This document shows positions 1-35,177 of a stretch of 44,537 bases of DNA, in pieces. Made by a program: the position numbers and the translations under genes. The notes beneath the pieces are model-generated. The model had not been told where the DNA came from. It ran no database searches and was given only the letters and a program-made list of their open reading frames with translations. The stretch lies in NCBI GenBank assembly GCA_034027115.1, contig GCA_034027115.1_4703.1; one strand, given 5' to 3'. Position 1 is the first letter of the stretch. The number at the start of each line of letters is the position of its first letter. The stretch comes from a phage.

Positions 1-1
1 A

Positions 2-1273
2 GGTACAGCCAGTTACAACATAGTCAGTAATGTTATAGGGGCAGATTGCCAGCATGTAACTTACAACGGCACTGAAGGGCCAATAGCTCCTTCTAATAAC
101 CTTATCAAGGGGGTGATGGCTAATAACCCTAAGTATGCAGCGGTTGTTGCAGGCAAAGGAAGTACGAACTTAATCTCAGACGTGCTCGTAGGTTACTCAA
201 CTTCTGATGCTAGTCAGGCTCATGGTGTTACCGTAGAAGGGTCTGATAACGTCATAAATAATGTGCTTATGTCAGGATGTGATGGTACTAACTCTTTAGG
301 ACAAAGGCAGACTGCTACAATTGCACGCTTTATAGGTACAGCTAATAACAACTATGCGTCTGTATTTCCTAGCTACAGTGCTACAGGCGTTATTACTTTC
401 GAATCCGGCTCTACCCGTAACTTCGTAGAGGTAAAGCACCCTGGCAGGAGAAACGACCTTCTCAGTTCTGCTAGTACTATTGACGGTGCATCTACTATTG
501 ACGGCACTAATAATAGTAACGTAGTACACGCACCTGCCTTAGGGCAGTACATAGGTAGTATGTCAGGTAGGTTCGAATGGCGGATTAAGTCCATGTCACC
601 CCCTTCAGGCGTTCTTACTTCTGCTGATAAGTACAGAATGCTTGGGGATGGTGCTGTATCATTAGCTTTAGGTGGGGGTACTTCTTCTCAAGTTCGCCTA
701 TTTACTTCTGATGGTACTTCTCGGACAGTGTCCCTCACCAACGGTAACGTGCGTCTTTCTACCAGTACAGGCTATTTGCAGTTAGGTGCTAATGCAATGA
801 CCCCAGATAGTACTGGTACATACGCATTAGGTTCCGCCAGTCGAGCATGGTCTGGCGGTTATACTCAAGCAGCATTCACTGTTACATCAGATGCTCGGTG
901 TAAAACAGAACCTCTTACTATCTCAGATGCCTTACTGGATGCTTGGTCTGAAGTTGACTTTGTGCAGTTTAAGTATTTGGATCGTGTTGAGGAGAAGGGT
1001 GCAGACTCAGCTAGATGGCACTTTGGCATCATAGCTCAGCGAGCTAAGGAGGCTTTCGAACGCCACGGTATAGATGCACATCGCTATGGCTTCTTGTGTT
1101 TCGACAGTTGGGATGATGTATACGAGGAAGATGCCAATGGCTCTCGTAAACTGATTACACCAGCAGGTTCCCGCTACGGTATTCGTTACGAGGAAGTACT
1201 GATATTAGAGGCTGCGTTGATGCGGCGGACTATTAAGCGTATGCAGGAAGCACTAGCTTCCTTGCCTAAGTAA
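2..1273 (+). CDS. Tailspike/tail fibre protein, C-terminal portion; ORF is open to the window edge, so the 5' end lies outside. Ends in an intramolecular-chaperone (peptidase S74-like) domain.
   Basis: Frame is open from position 2 with no stop until 1271-1273; the first in-frame ATG at 113 is not the true start. Translation has the S-D-x-R-x-K autocleavage-type motif (TSDARCK) followed by ...WHFGIIAQRAKEAFERHGIDAHRYGFLCFDSWDD, typical of endosialidase/tail-fibre C-terminal chaperone domains. Confidence 0.8.
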   Translation, partial: GTASYNIVSNVIGADCQHVTYNGTEGPIAPSNNLIKGVMANNPKYAAVVAGKGSTNLISDVLVGYSTSDASQAHGVTVEGSDNVINNVLMSGCDGTNSLGQRQTATIARFIGTANNNYASVFPSYSATGVITFESGSTRNFVEVKHPGRRNDLLSSASTIDGASTIDGTNNSNVVHAPALGQYIGSMSGRFEWRIKSMSPPSGVLTSADKYRMLGDGAVSLALGGGTSSQVRLFTSDGTSRTVSLTNGNVRLSTSTGYLQLGANAMTPDSTGTYALGSASRAWSGGYTQAAFTVTSDARCKTEPLTISDALLDAWSEVDFVQFKYLDRVEEKGADSARWHFGIIAQRAKEAFERHGIDAHRYGFLCFDSWDDVYEEDANGSRKLITPAGSRYGIRYEEVLILEAALMRRTIKRMQEALASLPK

Positions 1274-1357
1274 GCAACAGGCAGTGCGTAAGCACTGCTT
1301 TCACGCAACTTTTCTTAAAGGTTATCATGGTGGTAGCCTTTCAGAAAAGGAGGTTAC

Positions 1358-3409
1358 ATGCTTCAAAGACTAGGGGCTTCCTTGGTGAAGTTCAAGAGTA
1401 AACTCGCTGGTGCCATCGAACGTATACTCTCAGACAAGTTAATGGACACTGTAAGCGTTAAAGATTTTGGCGCTAAAGGAGATGGTATCTCAGATGATAC
1501 TGCTGCTTTCAAAGCAGCAATAACTTGTGGCGCATCTCGTGTATTAGTACCTGCTGGTAGGTATGTGATTACTGACACCCTTTCTTTGCCATCTGGGGTC
1601 TGGTTATTGGGTGAGGGTGTTGACTATTGGGATACCTATCGTCCAGACGAGGGTAGGCTTATTAAGTCATGGAGTAAAGGAACGCACCTTGTGTTCACTG
1701 GCAGTGGGCCTAAAAACAAGCAATTTCTTAATATCTCTAATGAACGCCCAACAAAGACAATAAATAAAGTAACCTGCTCTTTTACCGACTTCACCAATAG
1801 TGATGCACAAGCAACAAAACCTGCTACACCACGTAGTATGAGTATTGCTGTATCAGTACAGGCAGGCAGTGGCTTACGCGATCTTCGTATTATGGTAAAC
1901 AATGAAGGTATCTCTGGTTACAATGACTTTGTTTCTACAAACAAGCTAGGTGACAACTGGGATATTGGGTTGCATGTATATGACAGCTCAGATGCTGTAA
2001 TTGATAATGTGCAAGTTGTTGGCTATTGGAGGGTTGCAGGTACACTCTTAACGGAGAACGACGGCTCCATCACAATGCGTGGTAATCCAGAGAAGACACT
2101 ATTTAATAAGTTCTACACTCAAGGTATCAGAGGTTTACTTATTAGGAATAGCCCACAAGTAGATGTAGTATCTCAAGAGTCAGCAACCAAGTTAACCATT
2201 AAAGCGAATGCTACGTCCCGTATATTAGCACAAAATGGTTTTCGAGTAGCAGGTAGTACTACGATACATAGATGGACTAGTGTTACAAGACAAGGAGACA
2301 CTTATGTATTAGATGGCATCACACCTGCGTTACCTTCTGCTTCTGACCTCGGGGTTGTTCATTTCCCATCTATGGGTAACAATTGGTCTGGTACAGTGTT
2401 CAACAATACTGTTGCTGTGTCCTTTGAGCACTCATCCGGTAGCACCTCAAGACAACTAGGACTTCCTGTATCTTTTGCTATGGAGATTGATGGCTTCCCT
2501 TGTCGTAACCTCAAGTTCATAAACTTCAAGGCACAGACTTCTTACGATGAAGGAAATACATTGTTTGGTGATATGCGCGATGCCAAGTTTGTGGCTAGTG
2601 AGTTCGAGAATGGTAGGTTGATTGCGTACGATTTGTCTCAGACCCAAGGGTACACTGGGAATATGCGGTCTGCTGTGTCTGACATGCAGTTTCATTCTAC
2701 TAATATTGAGGGCTTCACACCACGTGATTTCTTCTATGACCTAGGACACTTTCCTACTTCTTACACTGATGGTTCTTTTATCATGAAGCATTGGAGAGAA
2801 AAGGATTTACAGGTACAATGGTATAATGGTAAAGCATTCATCCGTCTACATGAAGATGATGGCCGTGTAACACTTACCAGTAAAGATGGTCTAGATTTGT
2901 ATAACTTTAGTTCTACAAAAGACGTGACGTTCAATGGTCGCAATTTTGTATTCAAAAACGATGTAAGTGAAGACGTATTGAAGTGGTTTGGCGGTTCAGG
3001 GGATATCTCTACGAAAGGCAACATCTCGCCTATGGTAGATGGGACTGCCTCTCTGGGTACAAATTTCTATCGCTGGGGCGCAGTGCATTCAGTAAATGGG
3101 ACGTTACAAACCTCTGACGGTAGGCTAAAGGAGATCCATGATATTAAACAAGAAGAACTTGATGCGGGGATTGCATTATCAGCAAGTCTAATCAAGTACC
3201 GTTGGTATGGAGAAGAAAAGTTCCACTTTGGTTGTATTGCCCAAGAGGTAATGTTAATCATGGAGAAACATAATCTAGACCCATTACAGTATGGAATGGT
3301 GCAGTATGATGAAGAGGCAGACATCTTTAGTGTAAACTATGCTGAATTGAACAGCTTCTGCATCGCAGCTCTGTCTAGGAGGTTGAATGCCATTAATCAA
3401 ATCAGTTAA
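1358..3409 (+). CDS. Tailspike protein (683 aa) with pectate-lyase-like right-handed beta-helix and C-terminal intramolecular chaperone domain; probable capsule/LPS depolymerase.
   Basis: SD AAAGGAGG 7 nt upstream of ATG. N-terminal VKDFGAKGDGISDDTAAFKAAI...VPAGRYVI motif typical of pectate-lyase-fold tailspikes. C-terminal TSDGRLKEIHDIK...FHFGCIAQEV chaperone motif. Confidence 0.85.
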   Translation: MLQRLGASLVKFKSKLAGAIERILSDKLMDTVSVKDFGAKGDGISDDTAAFKAAITCGASRVLVPAGRYVITDTLSLPSGVWLLGEGVDYWDTYRPDEGRLIKSWSKGTHLVFTGSGPKNKQFLNISNERPTKTINKVTCSFTDFTNSDAQATKPATPRSMSIAVSVQAGSGLRDLRIMVNNEGISGYNDFVSTNKLGDNWDIGLHVYDSSDAVIDNVQVVGYWRVAGTLLTENDGSITMRGNPEKTLFNKFYTQGIRGLLIRNSPQVDVVSQESATKLTIKANATSRILAQNGFRVAGSTTIHRWTSVTRQGDTYVLDGITPALPSASDLGVVHFPSMGNNWSGTVFNNTVAVSFEHSSGSTSRQLGLPVSFAMEIDGFPCRNLKFINFKAQTSYDEGNTLFGDMRDAKFVASEFENGRLIAYDLSQTQGYTGNMRSAVSDMQFHSTNIEGFTPRDFFYDLGHFPTSYTDGSFIMKHWREKDLQVQWYNGKAFIRLHEDDGRVTLTSKDGLDLYNFSSTKDVTFNGRNFVFKNDVSEDVLKWFGGSGDISTKGNISPMVDGTASLGTNFYRWGAVHSVNGTLQTSDGRLKEIHDIKQEELDAGIALSASLIKYRWYGEEKFHFGCIAQEVMLIMEKHNLDPLQYGMVQYDEEADIFSVNYAELNSFCIAALSRRLNAINQIS

Positions 3410-3983: not shown

Positions 3984-4371
3984 TTCGTTTCGCTACGCTT
4001 CACTCACTGCTCCTCACTTCGTTCGTCGCTGCGGTAGCCTGATGTGTACCTTAGGTTATTACTTGATGGATAGCTTAGGTTAGCCTTAGTGGATTACCTT
4101 AGTTAAAGCCTTAGTGCTTCACTTAGTATCAGCTTAGTAGTGTACCTTAGTAAGTATTAGTGTCTTCTCTTAGTGATTGCACATGCAAGCATGTAAGATG
4201 CCATTAGGTCGCGGTCGGTAGACCGCTAAAGAAGGAGAATAGTAATAAGATGCAGTAGGAGGAACACCAGAAACCTAGCCAACCTAGCCTATCCTAGCTC
4301 TGTATCTATTGCTTTTCCTTAGTCTAACACGTTAGACAACCTATCTTATTCTTAGTGATGGTAACTTAGTG

Positions 4372-4400
4372 TTGACAAGATAATCTTAGTGTAATACTAT
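4372..4400 (+). promoter_or_regulatory. Candidate host sigma70-type early promoter (TTGACA, 17-nt spacer, TACTAT).
   Basis: Perfect -35, 17-nt spacing, 4/6 -10 match; about 140 nt upstream of the first early ORF. Confidence 0.4.
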
Positions 4401-4984: not shown

Positions 4985-5126
4985 AAGCATCAAGACGGCG
5001 ACGTCTTTAAACATCCCGCTCTTTAACAATTTGGATGGTAACTTCTTAGTCTGGATAGGTTAAACCTAGGAGATTCTCTTGAGTCTCCTATAATGTAACC
5101 TAACTAACTAAATGAGGATTAATAAC

Positions 5127-5486
5127 ATGGCTATGTCTAATATGACTTACTCTCAGGTTTACAACACCGCTCATGCTGCATTAGTTGAACGTATCTGGAA
5201 TGATGCTATTGATTGTATTGATAACGCACATGATGCAATCCATGATGTGGCGGATAGTGCTGTACCAATCTATTATGCTGACATCTTCTCCGTGATGGCG
5301 AGTGAAGGAATTGATCATTTCTTCGAAGACTCCGGCCTGATGCCAGACACTAAGGATGTAACGGTAGTCTTGCAAGCCCGTATCTATGAGCAACTCACAA
5401 TTGATCTATGGGAACGTGTTCAGTATATGATTGTTGAATACGTCAACTCCGCCGAATATTTAGAAGAAGAAGAAGAGGAAGAATAA
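5127..5486 (+). CDS. ocr: Ocr-like DNA-mimic anti-restriction protein (T7 gp0.3 family).
   Basis: Translation MAMSNMTY...[34 protein letters not shown]...[14 protein letters not shown]... closely matches T7 Ocr as I recall it; poly-Glu C-terminus; GAGGA SD 8 nt upstream of the ATG at 5127 (the ORF track start at 5112 is an upstream in-frame ATG). Confidence 0.9.
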
Positions 5487-5677
5487 GATGGAAAAGCTAT
5501 ACAACTTTATCTTTTCAGACGGTGTAACCCTGAAGTGTTCCCTACGATTCGCACAAATTCGTGAGGAAGTACTAGGCACTACATACAAACTATTTAGCTG
5601 ACACTATAAGAGAAGGCTTAACAAGGCGTTGCTACGGTAGCGCCTGATTAAACTTTCACTTACTAGGAGTTAAGACT

Positions 5678-5905
5678 ATGGATTTAGATAGCATCATTAT
5701 GGCATTTGCTCTTATTGGCTTAAGCTGGTGCTCCTATCACCTTTACCGTGAGTTCTTATTTGATAAAGCTAAACGCAAACTAAGAAAGGAAGGCGGTAAT
5801 TACCTTTGTGTAAGAGGTGGGCTTGTAGAATACATTGCACCTAACGGCACGGAATGCGCCATTAGCAAAGATGCATTTATAGAAACGTGGCATTACATCA
5901 AGTAA
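5678..5905 (+). CDS. Early small protein with hydrophobic N-terminus (75 aa), hypothetical.
   Basis: AGGAG SD; N-terminal hydrophobic stretch IIMAFALIGLSWCSY; a degenerate phage-promoter-like sequence (ATTTAGCTGACACTATAAGAG, about 5592..5612) lies upstream. Confidence 0.55.
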   Translation: MDLDSIIMAFALIGLSWCSYHLYREFLFDKAKRKLRKEGGNYLCVRGGLVEYIAPNGTECAISKDAFIETWHYIK

Positions 5906-5968
5906 CTAGCCTATAGCCTACCTGAGTGGGCTATGTGATATTTACTTACACTATATAAGTTGACTATT

Positions 5969-6892
5969 ATGACTACTGAAAACATCCTCCTGTCTGTCCG
6001 TGAAGCTGCAACCGCTGAGATTAAGCAGCATTTGGATAATATCGGCACTTCTTACATCAAAGTTGGCGCTTGTCTGAATGAATTACGCGGTGATTTCGAA
6101 GGTCAAAAAGACTTTTTAGCTTATGTAGAATCAGAGTTCGGCATCAAGAAAGCACAATGCTACAAGCTGATGAGTGTAGCCCGTGTCTTTGAAGGAGACG
6201 AACGCTTTAAAGGTGTGGCTATGCGTGTAATGCTGGCGCTTGTTCCTTTCGCTGATGAAAATATAATCATGGAGAAGGCAGCAGAACTCGCCGCAGATGG
6301 CAAGCTGGACACTAACGCCGTAAACGCCCTGATTGATCCTAAGAAAGAGACAAAGGCCGAGACGGTACAATCTAAGGTTGAGTCGGTAAAACCGCAGGAG
6401 AACGCGACTGAGGCCGCAGAAACTATGCAAGGACATGCAACCTTTGAGGATTTCATATTAGAGAAGGCGAAAGAGGAATTACAAAGTGTGCCGCCAGCAA
6501 GTGAGTCTGGTAACGACGAATCCGCACCGTGGGAAGACAAAAGCAAGCAGGAAGACACAAAGGCAGCGCCACGGGATAACACGGCTAACACCGAGAGTAC
6601 CGCTATTGCTGGCCTTCTGGCACAAATTAAAGCACTGACCGAGCAATTACAGGCAGCTAATGACCGCATTGCCTCCTTAAGCAGCGCACGCGAAAGCAAG
6701 AAAGCAGCCGCTCCTATGCTGCCGCAATTCAAATCTTCCTGCTTCTATGCTCGCTTAGGTTTAAGCGCTGAGGAGGCAACGAAGAAAACAGCAGTTAACA
6801 AGGCACGCCGCGAACTGGTTAAGCTAGGCTACGGCGAAGGCCATGAAGCATGGCCCTTAATCTCTGAGGCAGTAGAAGAATTAACTAAGTAA
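5969..6892 (+). CDS. Early protein of unknown function (about 307 aa) immediately upstream of the RNAP gene; N-terminal helix-rich domain, acidic low-complexity middle, coiled-coil C-terminal part.
   Basis: Long ORF with consistent coding composition; start ambiguous (TTG 5960 or ATG 5969); no kinase motifs despite occupying the slot of T7 gene 0.7. Confidence 0.65.
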   Translation: MTTENILLSVREAATAEIKQHLDNIGTSYIKVGACLNELRGDFEGQKDFLAYVESEFGIKKAQCYKLMSVARVFEGDERFKGVAMRVMLALVPFADENIIMEKAAELAADGKLDTNAVNALIDPKKETKAETVQSKVESVKPQENATEAAETMQGHATFEDFILEKAKEELQSVPPASESGNDESAPWEDKSKQEDTKAAPRDNTANTESTAIAGLLAQIKALTEQLQAANDRIASLSSARESKKAAAPMLPQFKSSCFYARLGLSAEEATKKTAVNKARRELVKLGYGEGHEAWPLISEAVEELTK

Positions 6893-6955
6893 CCTTATCG
6901 GTGGCATCTTCTTAGGCGTCACCTATTAAGGTTTCTTTCACTAGGAGTAAACAAG

Positions 6956-9583
6956 ATGCAAGACCTACACGCTATTCAACTTCAACTTGAAGAAGAAATG
7001 TTTAACGGCGGTATCCGTCGCTTTGAAGCGGACCAACAACGCCAGATTGCATCCGGTAATGAATCAGACACGGCATGGAATCGCCGCTTATTGTCCGAGT
7101 TAATCGCGCCAATGGCTGAAGGTATTCAGGCATACAAGGAAGAGTATGAAGGTAAAAGAGGCCGTGCACCGCGTGCATTAGCTTTCATTAACTGCGTAGA
7201 AAACGAAGTGGCAGCATATATCACGATGAAAATCGTTATGGATATGCTGAACACGGATGTAACCTTGCAGGCTATAGCCATGAATGTAGCTGACCGCATT
7301 GAGGACCAAGTACGTTTTAGCAAGCTGGAAGGTCACGCCGCCAAATACTTTGAGAAAGTTAAGAAGTCACTTAAGGCAAGTAAGACTAAATCATATCGCC
7401 ATGCGCACAACGTAGCGGTCGTGGCTGAGAAGTCAGTAGCTGACCGTGACGCTGATTTCTCTCGCTGGGAGGCGTGGCCTAAAGGTACCTTGCTACAAAT
7501 TGGTATGACCTTGCTAGAAATACTGGAAAATAGTGTATTCTTCAATGGTCAGCCTGTCTTTCTTCGCACCTTGCGCACTAATGGTGACAAGCATGGCGTT
7601 TACTACTTACAGACTAGCGAACACGTGGGTGAATGGATAACTGCATTTAAAGAGCACGTAGCTCAGCTGAGTCCAGCCTATGCACCTTGCGTTATTCCTC
7701 CGCGTCCGTGGGTTTCTCCGTTTAATGGTGGCTTTCACACCGAGAAGGTGGCAAGTCGCATCCGTCTAGTAAAAGGTAACCGTGAGCACGTCCGTAAGCT
7801 GACTAAAAAGCAAATGCCAGCGGTTTATAAGGCTGTTAATGCATTGCAAGCCACTAAGTGGCAGGTTAACAAGGAAGTATTGCAGGTAGTAGAAGATGTT
7901 ATTCGTCTAGACCTCGGTTATGGTGTACCTTCCTTTAAGCCGCTCATTGACCGCGAGAACAAACCAGCTAACCCTGTTCCTCTTGAGTTCCAACACCTGC
8001 GAGGCCGTGAACTGAAAGAGATGCTAACACCGGAGCAATGGCAGGCCTTCATTAACTGGAAGGGTGAATGTACTAAACTGTATACCGCTGAGACTAAGCG
8101 CGGCAGCAAGTCGGCGGCGACCGTCCGCATGGTAGGACAGGCCCGTAAATACAGCCAGTTTGACGCTATTTATTTTGTATATGCACTGGATAGCCGTTCA
8201 CGCGTTTATGCGCAATCTAGCACGCTCTCGCCGCAATCAAACGACTTAGGCAAGGCATTGCTCCGTTTTACCGAAGGGCAGCGTCTTGATAGCGCTGAGG
8301 CGCTTAAGTGGTTTTTGGTGAACGGGGCGAATAACTGGGGTTGGGATAAGAAAACTTTTGACGTGCGCACCTCTAACGTGCTGGATGGCGAATTTCAAGA
8401 CATGTGCCGCGACATTGCAGCCGATCCGCTGACCTTCACTCAATGGGTAAATGCTGATTCCCCTTACGGCTTCCTTGCATGGTGCTTTGAATATGCGCGT
8501 TATCTGGATGCACTGGATGAAGGCACGCAAGACCAATTCATGACGCACCTACCCGTCCATCAAGACGGTAGTTGCTCTGGTATCCAGCACTATAGCGCGA
8601 TGTTACGCGATGAAGTAGGTGCGAAAGCAGTAAACCTTAAGCCTTCTGACTTCCCTCAAGATATTTATGGCGCGGTTGCGCAGGTTGTTATCCAGAAGAA
8701 TTACGCCTACATGAATGCAGACGATGCAGAGACTTTCACATCTGGAAGCGTCACACTTACAGGTGCAGAACTGCGTAGCATGGCTAGCGCATGGGGTATG
8801 ATAGGTATCACTCGCGGCTTAACCAAAAAGCCGGTAATGACCTTGCCTTACGGCTCCACCCGCTTAACCTGCCGTGAGTCAGTGATTGATTATATCGTTG
8901 ATTTGGAAGAAAAAGAGGCCCAACGAGCTATTGCAGAAGGGCGGACGGCGAATCCTGTTCACCCTTTTGATAATGACCGCAAAGATTACCTGACACCGGG
9001 CGCAGCTTACAACTATATGACTGCTTTAATTTGGCCTTCTATCTCTGAGGTTGTTAAAGCTCCTATAGTGGCGATGAAAATGATTCGCCAGCTTGCACGA
9101 TTCGCAGCTAAAAGAAACGAAGGGTTAGAGTACACCTTACCTACTGGTTTCATCTTGCAACAAAAGATAATGGCTACCGACATGCTACGCGTATCCACTT
9201 GCTTGATGGGTGAAATCAAGATGAGTCTACAGATTGAGACTGATGTAGTGGATGAAACGGCTATGATGGGCGCTGCTGCTCCTAACTTTGTTCACGGGCA
9301 TGATGCTAGTCATCTCATCCTGACTGTATGTGACCTCGTTGACAAGGGCATTACATCCATCGCAGTCATCCATGATTCTTTCGGTACTCACGCAGGCCGT
9401 ACAGCCGATCTACGTGATAGTCTAAGGGCAGAAATGGTGAAGATGTATCAAGGCCGTAATGCCCTGCAAAGCCTGTTAGATGAGCATGAAGAACGCTGGT
9501 TAGTAGACACCGGAATCCAAGTGCCAGAGCAAGGAGAGTTTGACCTTAACGAAATCTTAGTATCTGACTATTGCTTCGCATAA
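6956..9583 (+). CDS. Single-subunit DNA-dependent RNA polymerase, SP6-type (875 aa).
   Basis: N-terminus [32 protein letters not shown]... and long stretches ([81 protein letters not shown]) match SP6 RNAP as I recall it; AGGAG SD. Confidence 0.97.
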
Positions 9584-9622: not shown

Positions 9623-9656
9623 ACCTACTACCGGTAACATTTCATTAACATAAAGT

Positions 9657-9672
9657 GTCTCACATGTGAGAC
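9657..9672. repeat. Copy 1 of conserved 16-bp perfect palindrome GTCTCACATGTGAGAC.
   Basis: Exact sequence read; immediately upstream of a phage promoter. Confidence 0.9.
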
Positions 9673-9674
9673 TT

Positions 9675-9697
9675 ATTTACCGGACACTATAGGATAG
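9675..9697 (+). promoter_or_regulatory. Phage RNAP promoter (ATTTACCGGACACTATAGGATAG).
   Basis: Matches the window's own consensus and the SP6-type CACTATAG core. Confidence 0.6.
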
Positions 9698-9839
9698 CCG
9701 TCGGAGACGGGAAAGAAAAGGGAAGATAAAGGATATAAAAGGAAGTAATAGGTATTAAAGCCTATATAGGTTATCTAGGAATACCTATTACCTTCTTCCT
9801 TCCTCTTATTACTACTTAGAGGAAGGGCAGATCTAGGTT

Positions 9840-9855
9840 GTCTCACATGTGAGAC
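9840..9855. repeat. Copy 2 of palindrome GTCTCACATGTGAGAC.
   Basis: Exact sequence read; again directly upstream of a promoter-like site. Confidence 0.9.
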
Positions 9856-9860
9856 TTCGT

Positions 9861-9883
9861 ATTTACCGGACAGTATAGATAAG
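9861..9883 (+). promoter_or_regulatory. Phage promoter-like site, variant (ATTTACCGGACAGTATAGATAAG).
   Basis: One core mismatch (CAGTATAG instead of CACTATAG); second of two tandem promoters after the RNAP gene. Confidence 0.5.
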
Positions 9884-9908
9884 ACTAACTTACTTTGGAG
9901 ATTTAACC

Positions 9909-10037
9909 ATGCGCAACTTCGAAAAGATGGCCCGTAAAGCTAACCGTTTTGACATGGAAGAAGGGCAGAAGAAAGGCAAGAAGCTGAATAAAACTGTCCG
10001 TGACCGTGCATCTAAACGCGCTGCGTGGGAGTTCTAA
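9909..10037 (+). CDS. Possible small basic protein (42 aa) directly upstream of primase-helicase.
   Basis: GGAGA SD 8 nt upstream of ATG; K/R-rich; stop 3 nt before the primase ATG; below the ORF-track length cutoff. Confidence 0.35.
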   Translation: MRNFEKMARKANRFDMEEGQKKGKKLNKTVRDRASKRAAWEF

Positions 10038-10040
10038 GTT

Positions 10041-12029
10041 ATGGCTATTATTCAGAATGTACCGTGTCCTGCCTGTCAAAAGAATGGACATGATATTACT
10101 GGCAACCATCTTATGATATTTGAGGATGGCGCTGGTTACTGTAACCGTGGTCACTTCCATGATAATGGGAAGCCTTATTACCATAAGCCAGAGGGTGGCA
10201 CCGAGATAACCGAGTTACCTATTACTGGCAATATCAAATATACACCTTCTCAATTCAAAGAAATGGAGAAGGAAGGGAAGATAAGCGACCCTAAGCTACG
10301 CGCCATCGCTCTTGGTGGTATGCGTATGAAAGACCGTTGGGAGGTCATGAATGAGCAAGAAAGGGCAGACCAAGAAGCAGAGTGGAAACTTGATGTTGAA
10401 TGGTTCCTCACGCTTAAGCGTAAGAACCTTGTATCCCGTCACATTCGAGGTGACATCGCAGCAATGTACGATGTGCGCGTTGGACACGATGAAGAGGGAA
10501 GAGTCAACCGTCACTATTATCCACGATATGAAAAGGGTGTGCTTGTTGGAGCAAAATGCCGGACGTTGCCGAAGGATTTTAAGTTCGGACACCTAGGTAA
10601 ACTCTTTGGTATGCAAGATCTTTTCGGTATGAACACTTTGTCTCACGTGTTAGACAAGGGGAGACGAAAGGATTGCTTGCTTATTGTAGGCGGTGAACTT
10701 GATGCACTAGCAGCGCAGCAGATGCTCCTTGATTCTGCCAAGGGTACTAAGTGGGAAGGCCAGCCATACCATGTATGGTCTGTCAACAAAGGCGAGTCTT
10801 GTCTTGAAGAGATAGTGCAAAACCGTGAGCATATCGCCCAATTCAAGAAGATTATATGGGGTTTTGATGGAGATGAGGTAGGGCAGAAGCAGAATCAGCA
10901 AGCGGCTCGCCTGTTTTCTGGCAAATCCTATATCCTTGAATACCCCTCTGGTTGCAAAGATGCTAACAAGGCATTGATGGCTGGCAAGGCCAAAGAGTTT
11001 GTTGATGCATGGTTTAATGCCAAGTCATCTGATGAAGTCTTTGGTAGCCAGATTAAATCTATCGCCTCTCAAAGGGATAAGCTCAAGGCTGCACGTCCAG
11101 AGCAAGGACTATCATGGCCTTGGCCTAAGCTGAACAAGGTAACGCTAGGTATTCGTAAGAACCAACTTATCATTGTAGGCGCAGGCTCTGGTGTAGGTAA
11201 GACTGAGTTCCTTCGTGAAGTAGTTAAGCACCTCATTGAAGAACACGGTGAATCTGTAGGCATCATTTCGACAGAAGACCCGATGGTCAAGGTGTCCCGT
11301 GCTTTTATCGGCAAGTGGATTGATAAGCGTATTGAGTTACCGCCAACCAACGACCCGAAAGAAGATGGATACCGTGAGGTGTTCGACTACACCGAGGAAG
11401 AGGCTAACGCCGCCATTGATTATGTAGCTGATACAGGTAAGCTGTTTGTAGCTGACCTAGAGGGTGACTATTCGATGGAAAAGGTAGAGCAAACTTGCCT
11501 AGAGTTTGAGGCTATGGGCATTTCTAATATCATCATTGATAACTTAACGGGGATTAAATTAGATGAGCGTGCTTTTGGTGGGAAGGTTGGTGCACTTGAT
11601 GAATGCGTCAAGCGGATTGGTACTATCAAAGACCGACACCCGGTTACTATATTCCTTGTATCACACCTTACACGTCCTCCGGCAAACCGTACCCAACACG
11701 AAGAAGGTGGCGAGGTTATCCTTTCTGACTTCCGAGGTTCAGGCGCTATCGGATTCTGGGCATCTTACGCCTTGGGGATTGAGCGTAATACAAGAGCTGA
11801 AACGCTTGATGAACGGACTACCACGTACATCTCATGTGTCAAAGACCGCGACCAAGGTATCTACACTGGAACCAAGGTCATGCTTAAGGGTGACATTCAA
11901 ACCGGACGTTTAATGGAACCACAAGCCCGTACTAAGTCATTTGATACAGGTGAAGCAAGGCAACAAGAAGTGCCGGATTTACCGGACACTATAGAAGAGA
12001 CAACTTTTGACGATGAACAGGAGTTTTAA
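10041..12029 (+). CDS. DNA primase/helicase (T7 gp4-like) with acidic C-terminal tail ending in Phe.
   Basis: N-terminal Cys4 zinc ribbon (CPACQKNGH...GYCNRGH), helicase Walker A (GAGSGVGKTEF), C-terminal ...TTFDDEQEF. Confidence 0.95.
   Translation: MAIIQNVPCPACQKNGHDITGNHLMIFEDGAGYCNRGHFHDNGKPYYHKPEGGTEITELPITGNIKYTPSQFKEMEKEGKISDPKLRAIALGGMRMKDRWEVMNEQERADQEAEWKLDVEWFLTLKRKNLVSRHIRGDIAAMYDVRVGHDEEGRVNRHYYPRYEKGVLVGAKCRTLPKDFKFGHLGKLFGMQDLFGMNTLSHVLDKGRRKDCLLIVGGELDALAAQQMLLDSAKGTKWEGQPYHVWSVNKGESCLEEIVQNREHIAQFKKIIWGFDGDEVGQKQNQQAARLFSGKSYILEYPSGCKDANKALMAGKAKEFVDAWFNAKSSDEVFGSQIKSIASQRDKLKAARPEQGLSWPWPKLNKVTLGIRKNQLIIVGAGSGVGKTEFLREVVKHLIEEHGESVGIISTEDPMVKVSRAFIGKWIDKRIELPPTNDPKEDGYREVFDYTEEEANAAIDYVADTGKLFVADLEGDYSMEKVEQTCLEFEAMGISNIIIDNLTGIKLDERAFGGKVGALDECVKRIGTIKDRHPVTIFLVSHLTRPPANRTQHEEGGEVILSDFRGSGAIGFWASYALGIERNTRAETLDERTTTYISCVKDRDQGIYTGTKVMLKGDIQTGRLMEPQARTKSFDTGEARQQEVPDLPDTIEETTFDDEQEF
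11977..11999 (+). promoter_or_regulatory. Phage promoter (ATTTACCGGACACTATAGAAGAG) embedded in the 3' end of the primase-helicase gene.
   Basis: Full consensus match; lies inside codons for ...VPDLPDTIEE. Confidence 0.6.
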
Positions 12030-12190
12030 TGGAAATTATTAAACCAGTATTGAATATCGGTATTGAGATCCTATTCATGCTTGTGATCGCAGATTATGCT
12101 GCACGATATGGCTTCAAGAAAGCAGTGAAACTTATCGTTGCATCTGGTTTTATGATGTCAATGTTCTTTATTGTAACACGCCTTATCTAG
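12029..12190 (+). CDS. Possible small membrane protein (53 aa).
   Basis: ATG overlaps the primase stop (TAATG); highly hydrophobic translation (ILFMLVIADY...FMMSMFFIV); below ORF-track cutoff. Confidence 0.35.
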   Translation: MEIIKPVLNIGIEILFMLVIADYAARYGFKKAVKLIVASGFMMSMFFIVTRLI

Positions 12191-12203
12191 TGTATTTATC
12201 AGG

Positions 12204-12227
12204 GCTTGTCTCACATGTGAGACAGGC
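12204..12227. repeat. Copy 3 of the palindrome, extended form GCTTGTCTCACATGTGAGACAGGC, followed by CTCTTATT.
   Basis: Exact read; extended stem of about 11 bp with one G-U pair; U-rich 3' flank suggests terminator or processing hairpin. Confidence 0.85.
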
Positions 12228-12256
12228 TCTTATTAAGTACATTAAATAACTGGAGA

Positions 12257-12946
12257 TTGATTATGTATAAATTAGTATTGAATGTAGGTGATTATGTTCG
12301 TAACATCAATGAAGCCTCACGTCGTTATCGTTGCCGTGGTGTAGTGGCTCGTGTAAGTGAGAACATGTATCATGTAGAATATGATGATGGTATTAAGGCT
12401 TCTTATCACAAGAAAACCGCACATAAATATCTTGAAAAGGTTGTAGAGGTAAGCAATCAATGTAAGTGCATACATGATGAGGTTTGCGATAAATGTGCTC
12501 GCCAGATGCTTAAGAATTTCCTAGCCCCTCTTTATTATGGTGCTGGTCCTCAAACACTAGCAGAGTACATGGCAGAAAAGAAAACCACACTCAAGAAAGA
12601 GCGTCGCAATGTAATCACTGGTAAGACTCAGAGTGAGATGATTAAGCAATGTGGCACTGCATTAGGTGTTACACAGTTCAATACTCGTGCATTGGGTAAA
12701 TCCACAGGACAAGCTATGGTGAAAATTGGTGAAGCTATGATGCACCCAAATGTGCCTGTGCGAATCTTGGATGTTGACTATGCAATCACAGAGCATGGCA
12801 CACCACGGCGTGTAGCTAATGATCATTTCGCCGACACTATAGAAGGTATTATTCGTAAGCAAGGGTTGAAGGGTCTTCACATCTTAAATGGTGAAGAATT
12901 ACTGTACCTGCCTATCGTTACTGAAGAAACATACGTGAATATCTAA
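12257..12946 (+). CDS. Hypothetical protein (229 aa).
   Basis: GGAG SD; uninterrupted ORF; no recognisable motif. A promoter-like ATTTCGCCGACACTATAGAAGG sits inside it at 12825..12846. Confidence 0.6.
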   Translation: MIMYKLVLNVGDYVRNINEASRRYRCRGVVARVSENMYHVEYDDGIKASYHKKTAHKYLEKVVEVSNQCKCIHDEVCDKCARQMLKNFLAPLYYGAGPQTLAEYMAEKKTTLKKERRNVITGKTQSEMIKQCGTALGVTQFNTRALGKSTGQAMVKIGEAMMHPNVPVRILDVDYAITEHGTPRRVANDHFADTIEGIIRKQGLKGLHILNGEELLYLPIVTEETYVNI

Positions 12947-12956
12947 GGAGTTAATC

Positions 12957-13175
12957 ATGACTAAGGTATTAATTTATATGCGTGGACCTCATAAATGCTA
13001 TGCAGTTGTAGCACCAAATGGCGTTAAGCCTTATCGTACTTCAAAAAGATTGGCATTAATAGGTGCTAGTAGTAGTGCAAGTTTCCAAATGGAACTTTTT
13101 GGTCATCGGACTGAAAGGCAATTCCGTGAGGATTTTAAAGTCATTGGCAGTTTCATGGTGAAATATGCAGAATAA
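12957..13175 (+). CDS. Hypothetical protein (72 aa).
   Basis: AGGAG SD upstream of ATG. Confidence 0.45.
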   Translation: MTKVLIYMRGPHKCYAVVAPNGVKPYRTSKRLALIGASSSASFQMELFGHRTERQFREDFKVIGSFMVKYAE

Positions 13176-13351
13176 ACATAGTCTTAGAATGTTCGATGGT
13201 CATGAAGACCTGCAAGCCAAGATTACTAACCAAGCCTTCCTGTTCGCACAGTTAACTATGGCTGAGGCCAAGAAGAATAGTCTCACTCGTGAACAGGTTA
13301 TCAAGGAAAGTGAAGTGAAACGTAAGATTCGCAGTCGATAAGTCAAGGGTT

Positions 13352-13367
13352 GTCTCACGTGTGAGAC
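13352..13367. repeat. Copy 4 of the palindrome, variant GTCTCACGTGTGAGAC, with extended stem and U-rich tail.
   Basis: Exact read: ggttGTCTCACGTGTGAGACagcc then ttttatc. Confidence 0.85.
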
Positions 13368-13492
13368 AGCCTTTTATCATGTTGATTGGAGGTGCATTAT
13401 GCCACGTGATTATGATTCTGATTGGGACTACTATGACTCAATGAATCCAAAACCAGAACGTTCAGATGATTACTACGAAACAGAGGCAATGT

Positions 13493-13711
13493 ATGAAAAC
13501 TATTAAAGTCAGTAAGGTTTGCTCTTGCGGTAAAGGTTATCGCAGTCGTATTGATGGTAAGTGTGGACATTGTAGGTCTAAGAAAGAGGCTGCTTTGTTT
13601 GACAAGTACCACAATGAATTAGCCTATAACTACCCACATCTAACACCTAATTCTTTATTAGGGCTTGGTTATAGGGCTAAATACTTTGGAGCAATCTATG
13701 AAATCAATTGA
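13493..13711 (+). CDS. Small Cys-rich (zinc-ribbon-like) protein, hypothetical.
   Basis: C-x-C...C-x-x-C pattern (VCSCGKGY...GKCGHCRSKK); start ambiguous (13466 or 13493). Confidence 0.4.
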   Translation: MKTIKVSKVCSCGKGYRSRIDGKCGHCRSKKEAALFDKYHNELAYNYPHLTPNSLLGLGYRAKYFGAIYEIN

Positions 13712-16244: not shown

Positions 16245-16526
16245 TGGATAGGCTTGACATTATTTGCCTATTCTTCACTCTCTTTCTTACACTCCTTATG
16301 CTTGCTTGTTATGGGAGTATGAGACTAGATATACCTGATGAAGAAGAGGGTTACGACTAATGCAAACTGCTTTTATTATTCTTGGTATCATATTATTTAT
16401 GGTAGTACTCTGGGCCTTCTCTGGCATTGACCCGGATTGTGATGGTAACTACGACTGAGTTATACTCAAGGTCACTTACGAGTGGCCTTTATGGATAACT
16501 TATCCCTACTTATTTTGTCTAACATG

Positions 16527-16548
16527 ATTTACTGGACACTATAGAAGG
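16527..16548 (+). promoter_or_regulatory. Phage promoter, consensus copy (ATTTACTGGACACTATAGAAGG).
   Basis: Exact consensus in an intergenic position. Confidence 0.7.
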
Positions 16549-16613
16549 AAAGCCTAGACAATCTAGGTTTATAAGGTAGTATAGGTAATTAAGTAAATAT
16601 AGGAGATATAAAC

Positions 16614-16991
16614 ATGTCTATGGTAACTACTCTGGTATTTGTAGCTCAATACTTTCGTGGTCTGGCTAATAAGTTCAAGTCCAAGGCTATCAAAGTTATT
16701 GAGTCTCGCATCGAGGCAGTACAGGCAGAGCAAGTTAAAGTTGAAGAACATCGTAGTTCTAAAATGATTGACTGCCATAACCGCTACTATGCATCTCGTG
16801 ATGACCTTAATGCACGCCAAGTCAAAGAGGTTGAAGAGATGCTGGCACGTCACCAGCAAGAGCGCGACAGTCTGAAAGCTGAATTTGAAGAGAACAAGGC
16901 ATCCATCGCCCTTGTACATCAAGCCGCATCTGACAGCCTGAAGAAAGAGATTGTTATGCTGGAAATTGAGTTAGACAACCTGACCAAATAA
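16614..16991 (+). CDS. Hypothetical protein (125 aa), hydrophobic N-terminus plus coiled-coil.
   Basis: SD TAGGAG; heptad-like charged C-terminal region. Confidence 0.55.
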   Translation: MSMVTTLVFVAQYFRGLANKFKSKAIKVIESRIEAVQAEQVKVEEHRSSKMIDCHNRYYASRDDLNARQVKEVEEMLARHQQERDSLKAEFEENKASIALVHQAASDSLKKEIVMLEIELDNLTK

Positions 16992-17010
16992 TTACTGGAC
17001 ACTATAGAAC
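16990..17010 (+). promoter_or_regulatory. Phage promoter variant (AATTACTGGACACTATAGAAC).
   Basis: Near-consensus match immediately after the upstream stop. Confidence 0.55.
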
Positions 17011-17153
17011 AATAGGTCGGCTTAGTTCGGCCTATGATTGTAAAGTGTTGAACCTTATTGTGCATCTTGCACAACCCGATGCTATATCGGGCTTTCTAGC
17101 GAGTACATGCTTGTGCTCAGTACAAAGCTAACTGACAATAGGAGACTAAATAA

Positions 17154-17960
17154 ATGGCACGTGGTGATTTTGATTTTGGTGCTCAGGTTACTAAGGCTGA
17201 AGGTAAAGTATTTAAGAACCCTGAAGTTGGTGATCATGAAGCAGTAATCTCTGGCATCATTCATGTTGGTTCCTTCCAAGATATTTTTAAGAAAGGTAAT
17301 ACCACTGAGGTTAAGAAGCCAGCAAACTTTGTTCTTGTTAAGATTATCCTGATGGGTGACGACGACAAGAATGAAGATGATTCTCGCATGGAACAGTGGA
17401 TGGCTGTGCCTCTGAAGTCTGGTGACAAGGCAACCTTGACTAAGTTCCTGAATGCAGTTGACCCTAAAGAGCTGCTTGGTGGTTTCGATGACTTCATCGG
17501 TGAATGCCTGACTGCAACTATGGTTGGCTCTGGCGACAAGAATGATGATGGTACTTTCAAGTATGTTAACTGGAAAGGCTTTGGCGGTATGCCTGATAAG
17601 TTGAAGAAGCTTGTACTGGCTCAGGTAGAAGAGGAAGGTCTGTCTATGACAGGTCATATCACCTTCGACAAGCTGACCAAAGAAATCCTTGATGACATCC
17701 CAGCTAACTTGGTGCGTCAATACTTCCTTAATGAAACACCTCGTGGTAAGAACCTGTCTGTTGCTGGTTCTCACGTAGAAGCAATCATTAAAGCTGCTCG
17801 TGAAGAAGACCCAGAGTGGAAGAAAGCCAAGAAGAAAGATGACGAGGATGCTACTCCAGCTAATCGTAAATCTCTGGATACTGGTGAGTCTGTTCCACAG
17901 GAAGTACCTGAAGCAGAAGATACTCCTGCACCGGAGATGGATGAGGACGCGGAATATTAA
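17154..17960 (+). CDS. Abundant-looking protein with acidic C-terminal tail ending in Tyr (268 aa); candidate single-stranded DNA-binding protein (function inferred).
   Basis: AGGAG SD; codon usage rich in ctg/cgt/ggt/gct; C-terminus ...EAEDTPAPEMDEDAEY resembles the acidic aromatic tail of T7 gp2.5. Confidence 0.7.
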   Translation: MARGDFDFGAQVTKAEGKVFKNPEVGDHEAVISGIIHVGSFQDIFKKGNTTEVKKPANFVLVKIILMGDDDKNEDDSRMEQWMAVPLKSGDKATLTKFLNAVDPKELLGGFDDFIGECLTATMVGSGDKNDDGTFKYVNWKGFGGMPDKLKKLVLAQVEEEGLSMTGHITFDKLTKEILDDIPANLVRQYFLNETPRGKNLSVAGSHVEAIIKAAREEDPEWKKAKKKDDEDATPANRKSLDTGESVPQEVPEAEDTPAPEMDEDAEY

Positions 17961-17969
17961 GGAGAAAGG

Positions 17970-18188: not shown

Positions 18189-18189
18189 A

Positions 18190-18205
18190 GTCTCACATGT
18201 GAGAC
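18190..18205. repeat. Copy 5 of palindrome GTCTCACATGTGAGAC.
   Basis: Exact read; 15 nt upstream of a consensus promoter. Confidence 0.9.
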
Positions 18206-35161: not shown

Positions 35162-35177
35162 GTCTCACATGTGAGAC
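35162..35177. repeat. Copy 6 of palindrome GTCTCACATGTGAGAC (extended stem, U-rich tail).
   Basis: Exact read: ggcttGTCTCACATGTGAGACaggtctttatg. Confidence 0.9.

What the first reader, a model, noticed from the sequence alone, without database searches (positions are those of the whole stretch)
5969..6892. About 307-aa early protein in the slot of T7 gene 0.7 but without kinase motifs
The gene directly upstream of the RNAP gene is the position of the T7 gp0.7 protein kinase/host shut-off protein, yet this product has no glycine loop or catalytic-loop motif. Instead it has a helical N-terminal domain, a long acidic low-complexity linker (about residues 125-200) and a coiled-coil C-terminal region. 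It looks like an uncharacterised host-takeover factor.
Basis: inference. Interest (0 to 1): 0.6.

Follow-up and report, generated by a model that had tools for sequence, protein, structure and literature searches.

The report
Phage DNA-binding regulator with J-like domain
The gene just before the phage RNA polymerase gene is not a kinase: it most likely encodes a DNA-binding protein that recognises short palindromes on the phage's own genome, and it ends in a degenerate chaperone-partner (J) domain.

Summary
The ORF is real: 5969-6892, 307 aa, 64 nt upstream of the RNA polymerase gene of a K1E/SP6-like podophage. It has no kinase motif and no similarity to T7 gp0.7.

It belongs to a widespread unannotated family (phrog_4571), almost always next to the RNAP gene. 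The AlphaFold2 model shows four parts:
- an N-terminal helical DUF3102-type domain with a ParB/KorB-like helix-turn-helix fold
- an ~80-residue disordered, mildly acidic linker
- a short heptad helix
- a C-terminal four-helix J-like domain with YGE in place of HPD; rare relatives keep HPD and pass Pfam DnaJ

The window also carries eight copies of the palindrome GTCTCAC-AT-GTGAGAC. One lies upstream of the early host promoter, three just upstream of phage promoters, three in terminator-like hairpins and one in the primase ORF. Across 21 lineages, residue 66 of the predicted recognition helix tracks half-site base 5 without exception: K with C, N/H with A, E/D with G. Predictions for new contigs held.

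Best reading: a dimeric site-specific regulator acting on the phage genome. DNA binding is inferred, not shown. The regulatory effect and the J-like domain's partner are unknown.

The parts
5969..6892 (+). Gene for the 307-aa early protein (homolog of K1E/K1-5 gene 6; phrog_4571)
   Evidence: ORF list and sequence; phrog_4571 E = 3e-129; 97-99% identical genes in Vectrevirus phages
5996..6334 (+). N-terminal helical domain (residues 10-122), DUF3102-type with a ParB/KorB-like HTH fold
6104..6190 (+). Predicted helix-turn-helix (helix 46-57, turn G58-I59-K60, recognition helix 61-74 'KKAQCYKLMSVARV'); K66 is the residue that covaries with the DNA half-site
   Evidence: Helix boundaries. This is the most conserved segment of the family. 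Position 66 is the only column that separates the two half-site classes while being invariant in class C
6335..6589 (+). Disordered, mildly acidic, length-variable linker (residues ~123-207)
   Evidence: pLDDT 43-63; 18 D+E against 10 K+R; 13-residue length difference between the 307-aa and 294-aa forms; poorly aligned among homologs
6590..6697 (+). Long helix (residues 208-243) with heptad-like hydrophobic spacing; likely dimerising coiled coil
   Evidence: AF2 helix 208-243 with pLDDT ~90; hydrophobic residues at 213, 216/217, 220, 223, 227, 234, 237; weak bZIP/TSC22 matches in a relative
6716..6889 (+). C-terminal J-like domain (residues 250-307); Y288-G289-E290 occupy the place of the HPD tripeptide
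4322..4337 (.). Palindrome variant GTCTAAC-AC-GTTAGAC, 34 nt upstream of the -35 box of the first strong sigma-70-type early promoter (4372-4400)
   Evidence: Syntenic copies lie upstream of TTGACA boxes in VEN, Nerthus, cp4 and Proteus PM116
9657..9672 (.). Palindrome GTCTCACATGTGAGAC, 2 nt upstream of the phage promoter ATTTACCGGACACTATAG (9675-9692), just after the RNAP gene
   Evidence: As RNA it forms only a 6-bp stem, z = -1.3
9840..9855 (.). Palindrome GTCTCACATGTGAGAC, 5 nt upstream of phage promoter 9861-9878
   Evidence: weak as RNA, z = -0.16
10640..10655 (.). Palindrome variant GTCTCACGTGTTAGAC inside the primase/helicase ORF (encodes S-H-V-L-D)
   Evidence: The syntenic copy in class-A phages reads GTCCAAC...GTTGGAC and encodes S-N-V-L-D (primase column 203)
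12208..12223 (.). Palindrome embedded in a 13-bp hairpin followed by a T-run (terminator-like), after the primase/helicase gene
   Evidence: RNA fold -19.7 kcal/mol, z = -5.3. The syntenic copy in Proteus PM116 is annotated as a Rho-independent terminator
13352..13367 (.). Palindrome GTCTCACGTGTGAGAC embedded in a 13-bp hairpin followed by a T-run
   Evidence: -17.9 kcal/mol, z = -4.2
18190..18205 (.). Palindrome 15 nt upstream of phage promoter 18221-18238
   Evidence: Syntenic palindrome-promoter pairs occur in SP6 (14255), cp4 (14307), Proteus (15692), Erwinia S2 (14275) and VEN (16151)
35162..35177 (.). Palindrome embedded in a 13-bp hairpin followed by a T-run, in the late region
   Evidence: -18 kcal/mol, z = -3.6. 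Syntenic copies: SP6 30569 and Proteus 31971

Best explanation
The protein is an early, probably dimeric, sequence-specific DNA-binding protein that acts on the phage's own genome.

Proposed mechanism:
- The N-terminal DUF3102-type domain carries a ParB/KorB-like helix-turn-helix.
- Its recognition helix (residues 61-74, with K66 reading base pair 5 of the half-site) binds the 16-bp palindrome GTCTCAC-NN-GTGAGAC.
- The heptad helix 208-243 probably pairs two chains. The long flexible linker would let the two HTH domains reach both half-sites, and could explain why 2-nt and 3-nt spacers both occur among relatives.
- The eight sites in this genome lie upstream of the first early host-RNAP promoter, directly upstream (2-15 nt) of three phage-RNAP promoters, inside three terminator-like hairpins and inside the primase ORF.
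- The most likely role is therefore KorB-like global control of phage transcription, such as feedback on the early promoter and modulation of particular phage promoters or transcription-unit boundaries.
- The C-terminal domain descends from a J domain but has YGE in place of HPD. It probably cannot stimulate DnaK's ATPase in the canonical way and more likely serves as a protein-interaction module with an unknown partner.

Shown here: the ORF, the family, the domain folds at model or profile level, the palindromes and their positions, and the residue-base covariation.

Inferred, not shown: DNA binding itself, dimerisation, the regulatory outcome, and any chaperone link.

For: 2. Palindrome. There are 8 matches within 3 mismatches against 0.21 expected, 5 of them exact. 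T7, which has no homolog, has no such repeat.

3. Co-occurrence. In an IMG/VR scan, 8 of 13 loci with two or more copies encode a homolog within the fetched stretch, against 1 of 107 single-copy loci.

4. Covariation of residue 66 with half-site base 5:
- K66 with C5 in 7 lineages (window, Erwinia S2, Vibrio VEN, Pseudomonas Nerthus, P0188, P0172, KL01/Reminis).
- N66 or H66 with A5 in SP6, Kenya-K31, cp4, POP72, H01 and Proteus PM116.
- R66 with A5 in the PP99 group and P0148.
- E66 with G5 in P0247 and Marinomonas.

5. Not simple phylogeny. The window's N-domain is 76-83% identical to N66/H66 proteins but only 41-52% identical to other K66 proteins. Position 66 is the only one of ~300 columns that separates the classes while being invariant in class C. 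Control proteins give 0 of 863 such columns (RNAP) and 1 of 652 (primase).

6. Prediction test, made before the contigs were read. N66 proteins P0231, P0184 and P0143 all have A5. D66 protein P0224 has G5. Overall 21 lineages show no exception; label permutation gives p <= 5e-6, ignoring phylogeny.

7. Chemistry. The pairings are the canonical ones (Lys-G, Asn-A, Glu/Asp-C; established knowledge of protein-DNA recognition).

8. RNA structure does not explain all sites. Five of the eight window sites fold only into 6-bp stems (z from -0.2 to -2.2), so RNA structure alone does not explain their conservation. Left-end and coding copies in relatives keep both half-sites even where RNA pairing would be C.A.

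9. Placement is syntenic across distant phages: upstream of TTGACA early promoters and 2-16 nt upstream of phage promoters.
Against: - Three window sites are good RNA hairpins followed by a U-run, and one syntenic copy has been annotated as a terminator. The motif therefore has, at least partly, an RNA-level role.
- In SP6 and Kenya-K31 the intergenic copies show a consistent T...G asymmetry, which reads as a G.U wobble in RNA.
- The lineages are not independent, and the covariation was noticed post hoc for the first classes.
- R66 with A5 and A66 with G5 have no simple chemical rationale.
- Contigs for the G66 and S66 members showed no site.
- Another conserved phage protein could be the true reader of the palindrome.
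- The window's own GYGxGHEA subfamily does not reach J domains by sequence alone.
Confidence: 0.6

Rival explanations
1. Origin or genome-organising factor. The protein binds the same palindromes, but its job is replication initiation or DNA organisation rather than transcription control. It would mark the region just after the RNAP gene (the two sites at 9657 and 9840 next to two phage promoters, the arrangement of T7's primary origin) and use the J-derived domain to bring in or handle host DnaK. That would parallel lambda O/P with DnaJ/DnaK, P1 RepA, or polyomavirus T antigen, which combines a J domain with an origin-binding domain.
Against: HPD is replaced by YGE, so canonical DnaK activation is unlikely. 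Sites are scattered over 31 kb, including a late-region terminator, rather than clustered like an origin. There is no ParB CTPase N-domain and no ParA partner (ORFs). The replication origin of these phages was not mapped here.
Confidence: 0.15
2. Host-directed J-like factor. The protein mainly targets the host chaperone network through its J-derived domain, for example by binding DnaK or DnaJ without activating them. That would perturb sigma-32 control, as the RB43 J-domain protein Rki does. On this reading the palindromes are unrelated RNA hairpins or terminators.
For: The J-domain ancestry of the C-terminal domain. Helix II keeps its basic residues (TKKTAVNKARRELVK). The replacement loop GYGxGHEA is itself strongly conserved, with G, Y and H invariant in 21 sequences, which implies a selected interaction surface. 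There is precedent for a phage J-domain protein that acts on DnaK and sigma-32 (PMC3486835). Three palindromes are convincing terminator-like hairpins.
Against: This reading does not explain the exception-free covariation between residue 66 of the N-domain and the half-site in 21 lineages, or the successful predictions. It does not explain the weakly folding promoter-proximal and coding copies. HPD, shown to be essential in Rki chimeras (H38Q control, PMC3486835), is absent.
Confidence: 0.12
3. Functional analogue of T7 gp0.7: a protein kinase and/or host-transcription shut-off protein, as assumed from position. The phiA318 genome paper calls the homolog 'similar to gene 0.7 ... could encode a kinase'.
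For: Only the position directly upstream of the RNAP gene and the statement in PMC4099482.
Against: No kinase motifs. No kinase family matches the protein or any of 102 relatives. No similarity to T7 gp0.7 (E = 5.2). Both globular domains have different, identifiable folds.
Confidence: 0.03

Closest known systems
KorB of plasmid RK2 (ParB-family global repressor)
   Different: There is no detectable sequence similarity. There is no ParB/Srx-type N-terminal CTPase domain, no ParA/IncC partner and no KorA-like partner. The C-terminal dimerisation domain is replaced by a coiled coil plus a J-like domain. The promoters next to most sites are for a single-subunit phage RNAP.
DUF3102 (Pfam PF11300)
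   Same: 35 of 102 family members match it, best E = 1.5e-7, over the HTH-containing segment. The closest non-family structural neighbours in BFVD are named DUF3102 proteins.
   Different: The window protein itself does not reach any Pfam threshold. DUF3102 has no assigned function and no literature.
J-domain proteins (PF00226), especially J-like proteins without HPD such as Tim16/Pam16
   Different: HPD is replaced by YGE within a conserved GYGxGHEA loop. The window protein and its subfamily do not reach J domains by sequence alone. The domain is C-terminal and fused to a DNA-binding domain.
Rki (gene 057w) of phage RB43, the first functional phage J-domain protein
   Same: It is a phage-encoded protein with a J-type domain (PMC3486835).
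   Different: Rki has a functional HPD and acts on DnaK and sigma-32. It has no DUF3102/HTH domain. The phage family and gene context are unrelated.
E. coli CbpA and polyomavirus large T antigen (J domain combined with DNA binding)
   Different: In both, the J domain is N-terminal and carries HPD. CbpA binds curved DNA without sequence specificity. T antigen has an origin-binding domain and a helicase. There is no homology outside the J fold.
T7 gp0.7 (protein kinase / host shut-off)
   Same: Only the gene position immediately upstream of the RNAP gene.
   Different: No sequence, motif or fold similarity.

Membership tests
phrog_4571 (unannotated phage protein family) | Full-length match to the family profile | tested here: met
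   E = 3e-129; residues 1-307 against profile positions 1-287 of 289. All 102 aligned relatives also match.
T7 gp0.7 protein kinase | Sequence similarity to gp0.7 | tested here: not met
   BLASTP against T7 gp0.7 (L135:2021-3097): best E = 5.2 over 15 residues.
T7 gp0.7 protein kinase | Kinase catalytic or nucleotide-binding motifs | tested here: not met
   No GxGxxG, HRD, DFG, D.K..N, APE or Walker A. No kinase family in Pfam or NCBIfam for the protein or 102 relatives.
T7 gp0.7 protein kinase | Gene position immediately upstream of the phage RNAP gene in the early region | tested here: met
   5969-6892 against RNAP 6956-9583. T7 gene 0.7 is at 2021-3100 against gene 1 at 3171.
J-domain proteins (PF00226 DnaJ) | Score above Pfam's gathering threshold | tested here: not met
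   No DnaJ hit for the window protein even at E = 10. Among relatives only P0247 passes (43.7 bits against 27.8); others score 16.9-26 bits.
J-domain proteins (PF00226 DnaJ) | Four-helix J fold with the helix II-III hairpin | tested here: met
J-domain proteins (PF00226 DnaJ) | HPD tripeptide between helices II and III (required to stimulate the Hsp70 ATPase) | tested here: not met
   The aligned position reads Y-G-E within LGYGEGHEAW. HPD is present only in P0247 and P0240.
J-domain proteins (PF00226 DnaJ) | Stimulation of DnaK ATPase, or binding to DnaK | not testable with these tools
   Requires biochemistry.
DUF3102 (PF11300) | Match to the Pfam profile | tested here: inconclusive
   The window protein has no hit. 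35 of 102 relatives match at E <= 0.01; the examples examined score below the 24.4-bit cut-off. Structural neighbours are named DUF3102.
ParB/KorB family | HTH DNA-binding domain of ParB/KorB type | tested here: inconclusive
ParB/KorB family | N-terminal ParB/Srx CTP-binding domain (GxxR box) | tested here: not met
   No ParBc family among the Pfam hits of 102 members. The helical domain starts at residue 10.
ParB/KorB family | Multiple palindromic sites on the same replicon recognised by the protein | tested here: inconclusive
   The sites exist, and their half-site covaries with residue 66 in 21 lineages. Binding itself was not tested.

The most novel reading that the evidence does not exclude
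SP6-type phages encode a dedicated site-specific DNA-binding factor for their single-subunit RNA polymerase system. It would sit at -20 to -35 of selected phage promoters, at the early host promoter and at terminators, and would control the transcription programme. That would be a phage counterpart of upstream factors such as mitochondrial TFAM or mTERF. Its J-derived domain would couple these sites to host Hsp70 or to the phage RNAP. It would be the first DNA-bound regulator described for T7-supergroup transcription, and the residue-66/base-5 code would make its specificity reprogrammable.
Probability: 0.2. Interest if true: 0.85.

Novelty: new variant of a known kind. Interest (0 to 1): 0.66.

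Why it matters
- T7-supergroup phages are textbook examples of transcription programmes run only by promoter strength, RNAP inhibitors and genome entry. No sequence-specific DNA-binding regulator is known for them.
- A conserved early HTH protein with its own operator set would add a missing regulatory layer to the SP6/K1E/K1-5 group and to many marine and plant-pathogen podophages. These phages are widely used in therapy and as the source of SP6 RNAP.
- It would correct positional mis-annotations ('gp0.7-like kinase', 'endolysin', 'VLTF-4').
- It would give DUF3102 a first functional hypothesis.
- It would provide a natural series of matched protein and operator variants (K with C, N with A, E/D with G) usable as orthogonal repressor-operator pairs.
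- The degenerate J domain is a test case for how viruses repurpose the Hsp70 co-chaperone fold.

Tried and rejected
- Single-sequence searches of Pfam, NCBIfam and the PDB gave only noise.
- The N-domain profile against PDB sequences found nothing.
- Foldseek of the whole model against the PDB was weak, with KorB at E = 3.2. The afdb50 library was not available.
- A C-terminal profile restricted to the window's own GYGxGHEA subfamily did not reach J domains (DnaJ E = 0.35). The J assignment for this protein therefore rests on the family-wide profile, on homology to members that do hit PF00226, and on the model's fold.
- The search for related loci with alignments A1 and A3 failed because no stretch was conserved enough.
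- The SP6 genome paper (PMC374404) could not be read.
- A literature hit for 'J-like domain' turned out to concern baseplate-J-like domains of DruH and was irrelevant.
- Rfam gave no family anywhere in the window.
- I considered that the palindromes are only intrinsic terminators. I rejected this as a full explanation because five of eight fold weakly and because the half-site tracks the protein. It stands for three sites.
- I considered a link between GTCTC and type IIS restriction sites. I dropped it because the half-site varies with lineage.
- Contigs for P0187 (G66) and P0189 (S66) were 2 kb long and showed no palindrome, so they are uninformative.

Full report
**Context.** The window is a circularly permuted genome of a K1E/SP6-like podophage (Vectrevirus, Molineuxvirinae). 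Region 5600-7000 is 97.9% identical to Escherichia phage 6948 and 95% identical to K1E, where the gene is 'gene 6'. All genes run on the + strand. The early region starts near 4.3 kb, and the 875-aa single-subunit RNA polymerase is at 6956-9583.

**Observation.**
- The ORF 5969-6892 (ATG, 307 aa) exists and ends 64 nt before the RNAP gene.
- It has no kinase or P-loop motif and no Pfam, NCBIfam or PDB sequence match.
- It has no similarity to T7 gp0.7 (E = 5.2).
- It is a real, conserved gene: phrog_4571 at E = 3e-129, 340 clusters at 90% identity, 129 representatives at 50% identity in an exhaustive HMMER scan, and full-length matches in 214 phage records. Those records infect Escherichia, Klebsiella, Salmonella, Proteus, Erwinia, Pectobacterium, Vibrio, Pseudomonas, Aeromonas, Ralstonia and Marinomonas.
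- In every genome inspected it lies directly upstream of the RNAP gene, or one to two small ORFs upstream.

**Anatomy.** AlphaFold2 with a 102-sequence alignment gives mean pLDDT 81.7.
- Residues 10-122: six helices, pLDDT 89-98.
- Residues ~125-205: disordered, pLDDT 43-63.
- Residues 208-243: one long helix.
- Residues 250-307: a compact four-helix domain, pLDDT 94-98.

The linker has 18 acidic and 10 basic residues and varies in length among relatives. The long helix has hydrophobic residues at 213, 216/217, 220, 223, 227, 234 and 237, a heptad-like pattern.

**C-terminal domain.**
- Scanning each of 102 relatives against Pfam gives DnaJ (PF00226) in 12, always on the C-terminal block that aligns with window residues 250-307.
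- One member (P0247, HHPDK) passes the curated threshold: 43.7 bits against 27.8.
- A profile of 47 C-terminal domains, none containing HPD, hits about 45 J domains among 51 PDB matches. The best is E = 2.1e-5 (DNAJA1), aligned over helices I-III.
- In the window protein the HPD position reads Y-G-E inside a loop GYGxGHEA. G, Y and H are invariant in 21 subfamily sequences.
- A profile of that subfamily alone does not reach J domains.
- I therefore call this a J-derived ('J-like') domain, not a J domain: the defining HPD is tested and absent.

**N-terminal domain.**
- Pfam DUF3102 matches 35 of 102 relatives, mostly below threshold, over the segment 'FL.W....FGIKKAQ.Y.LMKV'.
- BFVD structural neighbours are DUF3102 proteins (E = 7e-4).
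- There is no sequence-level match.
- The model shows helix 46-57, turn G-I-K, helix 61-74. This is the most conserved stretch of the family and has the form of a helix-turn-helix.

**The palindromes.** While scanning the surroundings I found GTCTCACATGTGAGAC five times exactly, plus three variants. That is 8 matches within 3 mismatches against 0.21 expected.

Placement:
- 4322 is 34 nt upstream of the first strong sigma-70-type promoter (4372-4400).
- 9657, 9840 and 18190 are 2, 5 and 15 nt upstream of phage promoters (ATTTAC[CT]GGACA[CG]TATAG).
- 12208, 13352 and 35162 are embedded in longer hairpins followed by T-runs.
- 10640 is inside the primase/helicase ORF.

As RNA, only the three embedded copies fold strongly (13-bp stems, -18 to -20 kcal/mol, z from -3.6 to -5.3). 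The other five form 6-bp stems with z from -0.2 to -2.2. Rfam has nothing in the window.

**Comparative test.**
- Distant phages that carry a homolog carry the same kind of repeat at syntenic places, including upstream of TTGACA early promoters and 2-16 nt upstream of their own phage promoters. T7, without a homolog, has none.
- In IMG/VR, 8 of 13 loci with two or more copies of GTCTCAC-N2-3-GTGAGAC encode a homolog within the fetched stretch, against 1 of 107 single-copy loci.
- The half-site is not constant, and it tracks residue 66, the sixth residue of the predicted recognition helix:

| Residue 66 | Half-site | Lineages |
|---|---|---|
| K66 (Q63) | GTCTCAC | window, Erwinia S2, Vibrio VEN, Pseudomonas Nerthus, IMG/VR P0188, P0172, P0139-like |
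| N66 (H66 in SP6) | GTCCAAC / GTCTAAC | SP6, Kenya-K31, cp4, POP72, H01, Proteus PM116 |
| K66 (W63) | GTCTCCT | KL01, Reminis |
| R66 | GTCTAGT or GTCTACC | PP99 group, P0148 |
| E66 | GTCTGAC or GTTCGAG | P0247, Marinomonas CPP1m |

- This is not plain phylogeny. The window N-domain is 76-83% identical to the N66/H66 proteins but 41-52% identical to other K66 proteins. Of ~300 alignment columns, only position 66 separates 8 class-C proteins from 6 class-A proteins while being invariant in class C.
- The same test gives 0 of 863 such columns for the RNAP and 1 of 652 for the primase.
- I then predicted base 5 for untested variants and fetched their contigs. N66 proteins P0231, P0184 and P0143 have A5. 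D66 protein P0224 has G5. A66 protein P0225 has G5 (about 14 copies). Two 2-kb contigs (G66, S66) were uninformative.
- Altogether 21 lineages show no exception. Label permutation gives p <= 5e-6, ignoring relatedness.
- Lys-G, Asn-A and Glu/Asp-C are the classic side-chain/base pairings (established knowledge).
- The copy inside the primase ORF also switches with class, changing the encoded residue from H to N.

**Interpretation.**
- The most economical reading is that this protein binds these palindromes as a dimer, through an HTH whose residue 66 reads base pair 5. This is inferred, not shown.
- The sites lie at the early host promoter, next to several phage promoters and at transcription-unit ends. 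I therefore favour a KorB-like global transcription regulator of the phage's own genome, expressed early by host RNAP.
- Some sites double as RNA hairpins or terminators. In SP6-type phages the intergenic copies keep RNA-compatible G.U asymmetry. The element is therefore probably read at both DNA and RNA level, or the protein modulates termination there.
- A replication or organisation role is the main variant I cannot exclude: there are two sites plus two promoters right after the RNAP gene, as at T7's primary origin.
- The role of the J-like domain is open. Its ancestry suggests Hsp70, but the loss of HPD and the conserved replacement loop suggest a changed partner.

**Comparison with what is known.**
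- No paper on the family, on DUF3102 function or on the palindrome was found.
- The phiA318 genome paper labels the homolog a gp0.7-like kinase from position alone. This is not supported.
- The only characterised phage J-domain protein, RB43 Rki, has a functional HPD and no DNA-binding domain.
- The protein is thus a new combination of known modules (ParB/KorB-like HTH, coiled coil, degenerate J domain) with a testable operator set.

**Verdict.**
- The 'host-takeover' interpretation is only partly supported.
- Best explanation: a site-specific DNA-binding regulator of the phage genome, confidence 0.6.
- Novelty: new variant of a known kind. Interest 0.66.

Noticed in passing
window 10640-10655 (inside primase/helicase ORF 10041-12029): A copy of the palindrome lies in coding sequence and encodes S-H-V-L-D. 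In phages whose palindrome is GTCCAAC, the syntenic copy encodes S-N-V-L-D, so the DNA motif appears to dictate an amino-acid change in the primase. A second coding copy sits in the RNAP gene of Erwinia S2, Kenya-K31, POP72, VEN and Nerthus, but it is degenerate in the window (8366: ACCTCTAACGTGCTGGAT).
   Followed up: partly
window 5912-5961: Directly upstream of the gene there is a 10-bp hairpin (5912-5935) and then ATTTACTTACACTATATAAG. This resembles the phage promoter consensus ATTTAC(C/T)GGACACTATAGAAG but is one base shorter in the specificity region and has T at +1. It may be a decayed or weak phage promoter ending 8 nt before the ATG. No clear Shine-Dalgarno sequence is seen.
   Followed up: no
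L133 (Pectobacterium PP99), L134 (Vibrio JSF38), L132 (Klebsiella KL01), L131 (Ralstonia Reminis), L142: These phages carry a second, different repeated palindrome (GTACTAG-N4-CTAGTAC) beside the GTCT-type one. This suggests a second site-specific factor, or a second specificity, in that lineage.
   Followed up: no
L152 (metagenomic contig with P0225), 9628-18192: About 14 copies of GTCTGAC-ACT-GTCAGAC lie within ~9 kb, including copies inside the homolog's own gene (10309, 10825) and just upstream of GGACCAGTATAAT-like promoters. This is much denser than in the window.
   Followed up: no
L138 (Salmonella phage Kenya-K31) 6620: One GTCTCAC-AT-GTGAGAC site (the window's class) occurs in a genome whose other seven sites are GTCYAAC-type and whose protein has N66. 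This is a site-level exception, possibly acquired by recombination.
   Followed up: no
window 5112-5486: A 124-aa early ORF ends in EEEEEEE. It is a very acidic small protein two genes upstream. A paper on SP6 relatives mentions an SP6 Gp5 'putative anti-restriction protein' in this neighbourhood. It was not analysed here.
   Followed up: no
window 1-3409: The window starts with two large tail-spike-like ORFs (113-1273, 1358-3409), and the early region begins only near 4.3 kb. The record is therefore circularly permuted relative to the physical genome ends.
   Followed up: no
public records of homologs: Homologs are mis-named in databases and literature: 'endolysin'/'andolysin', 'late transcription factor VLTF-4', 'putative prolipoprotein diacylglyceryl transferase', and 'similar to gene 0.7 ... 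kinase' in PMC4099482. None of these names is supported by the analyses here.
   Followed up: yes
family members P0129-P0235: Many relatives carry 60-150 extra N-terminal residues, for example MKDLKDQLQDAVIIMRMDNKATIKGMVEKLTEQGFD in KL01 and PP99. These are covered by phrog_1733 and phrog_15609 and have no annotation. This may be an additional small DNA- or protein-binding module that is absent from the window protein.
   Followed up: no
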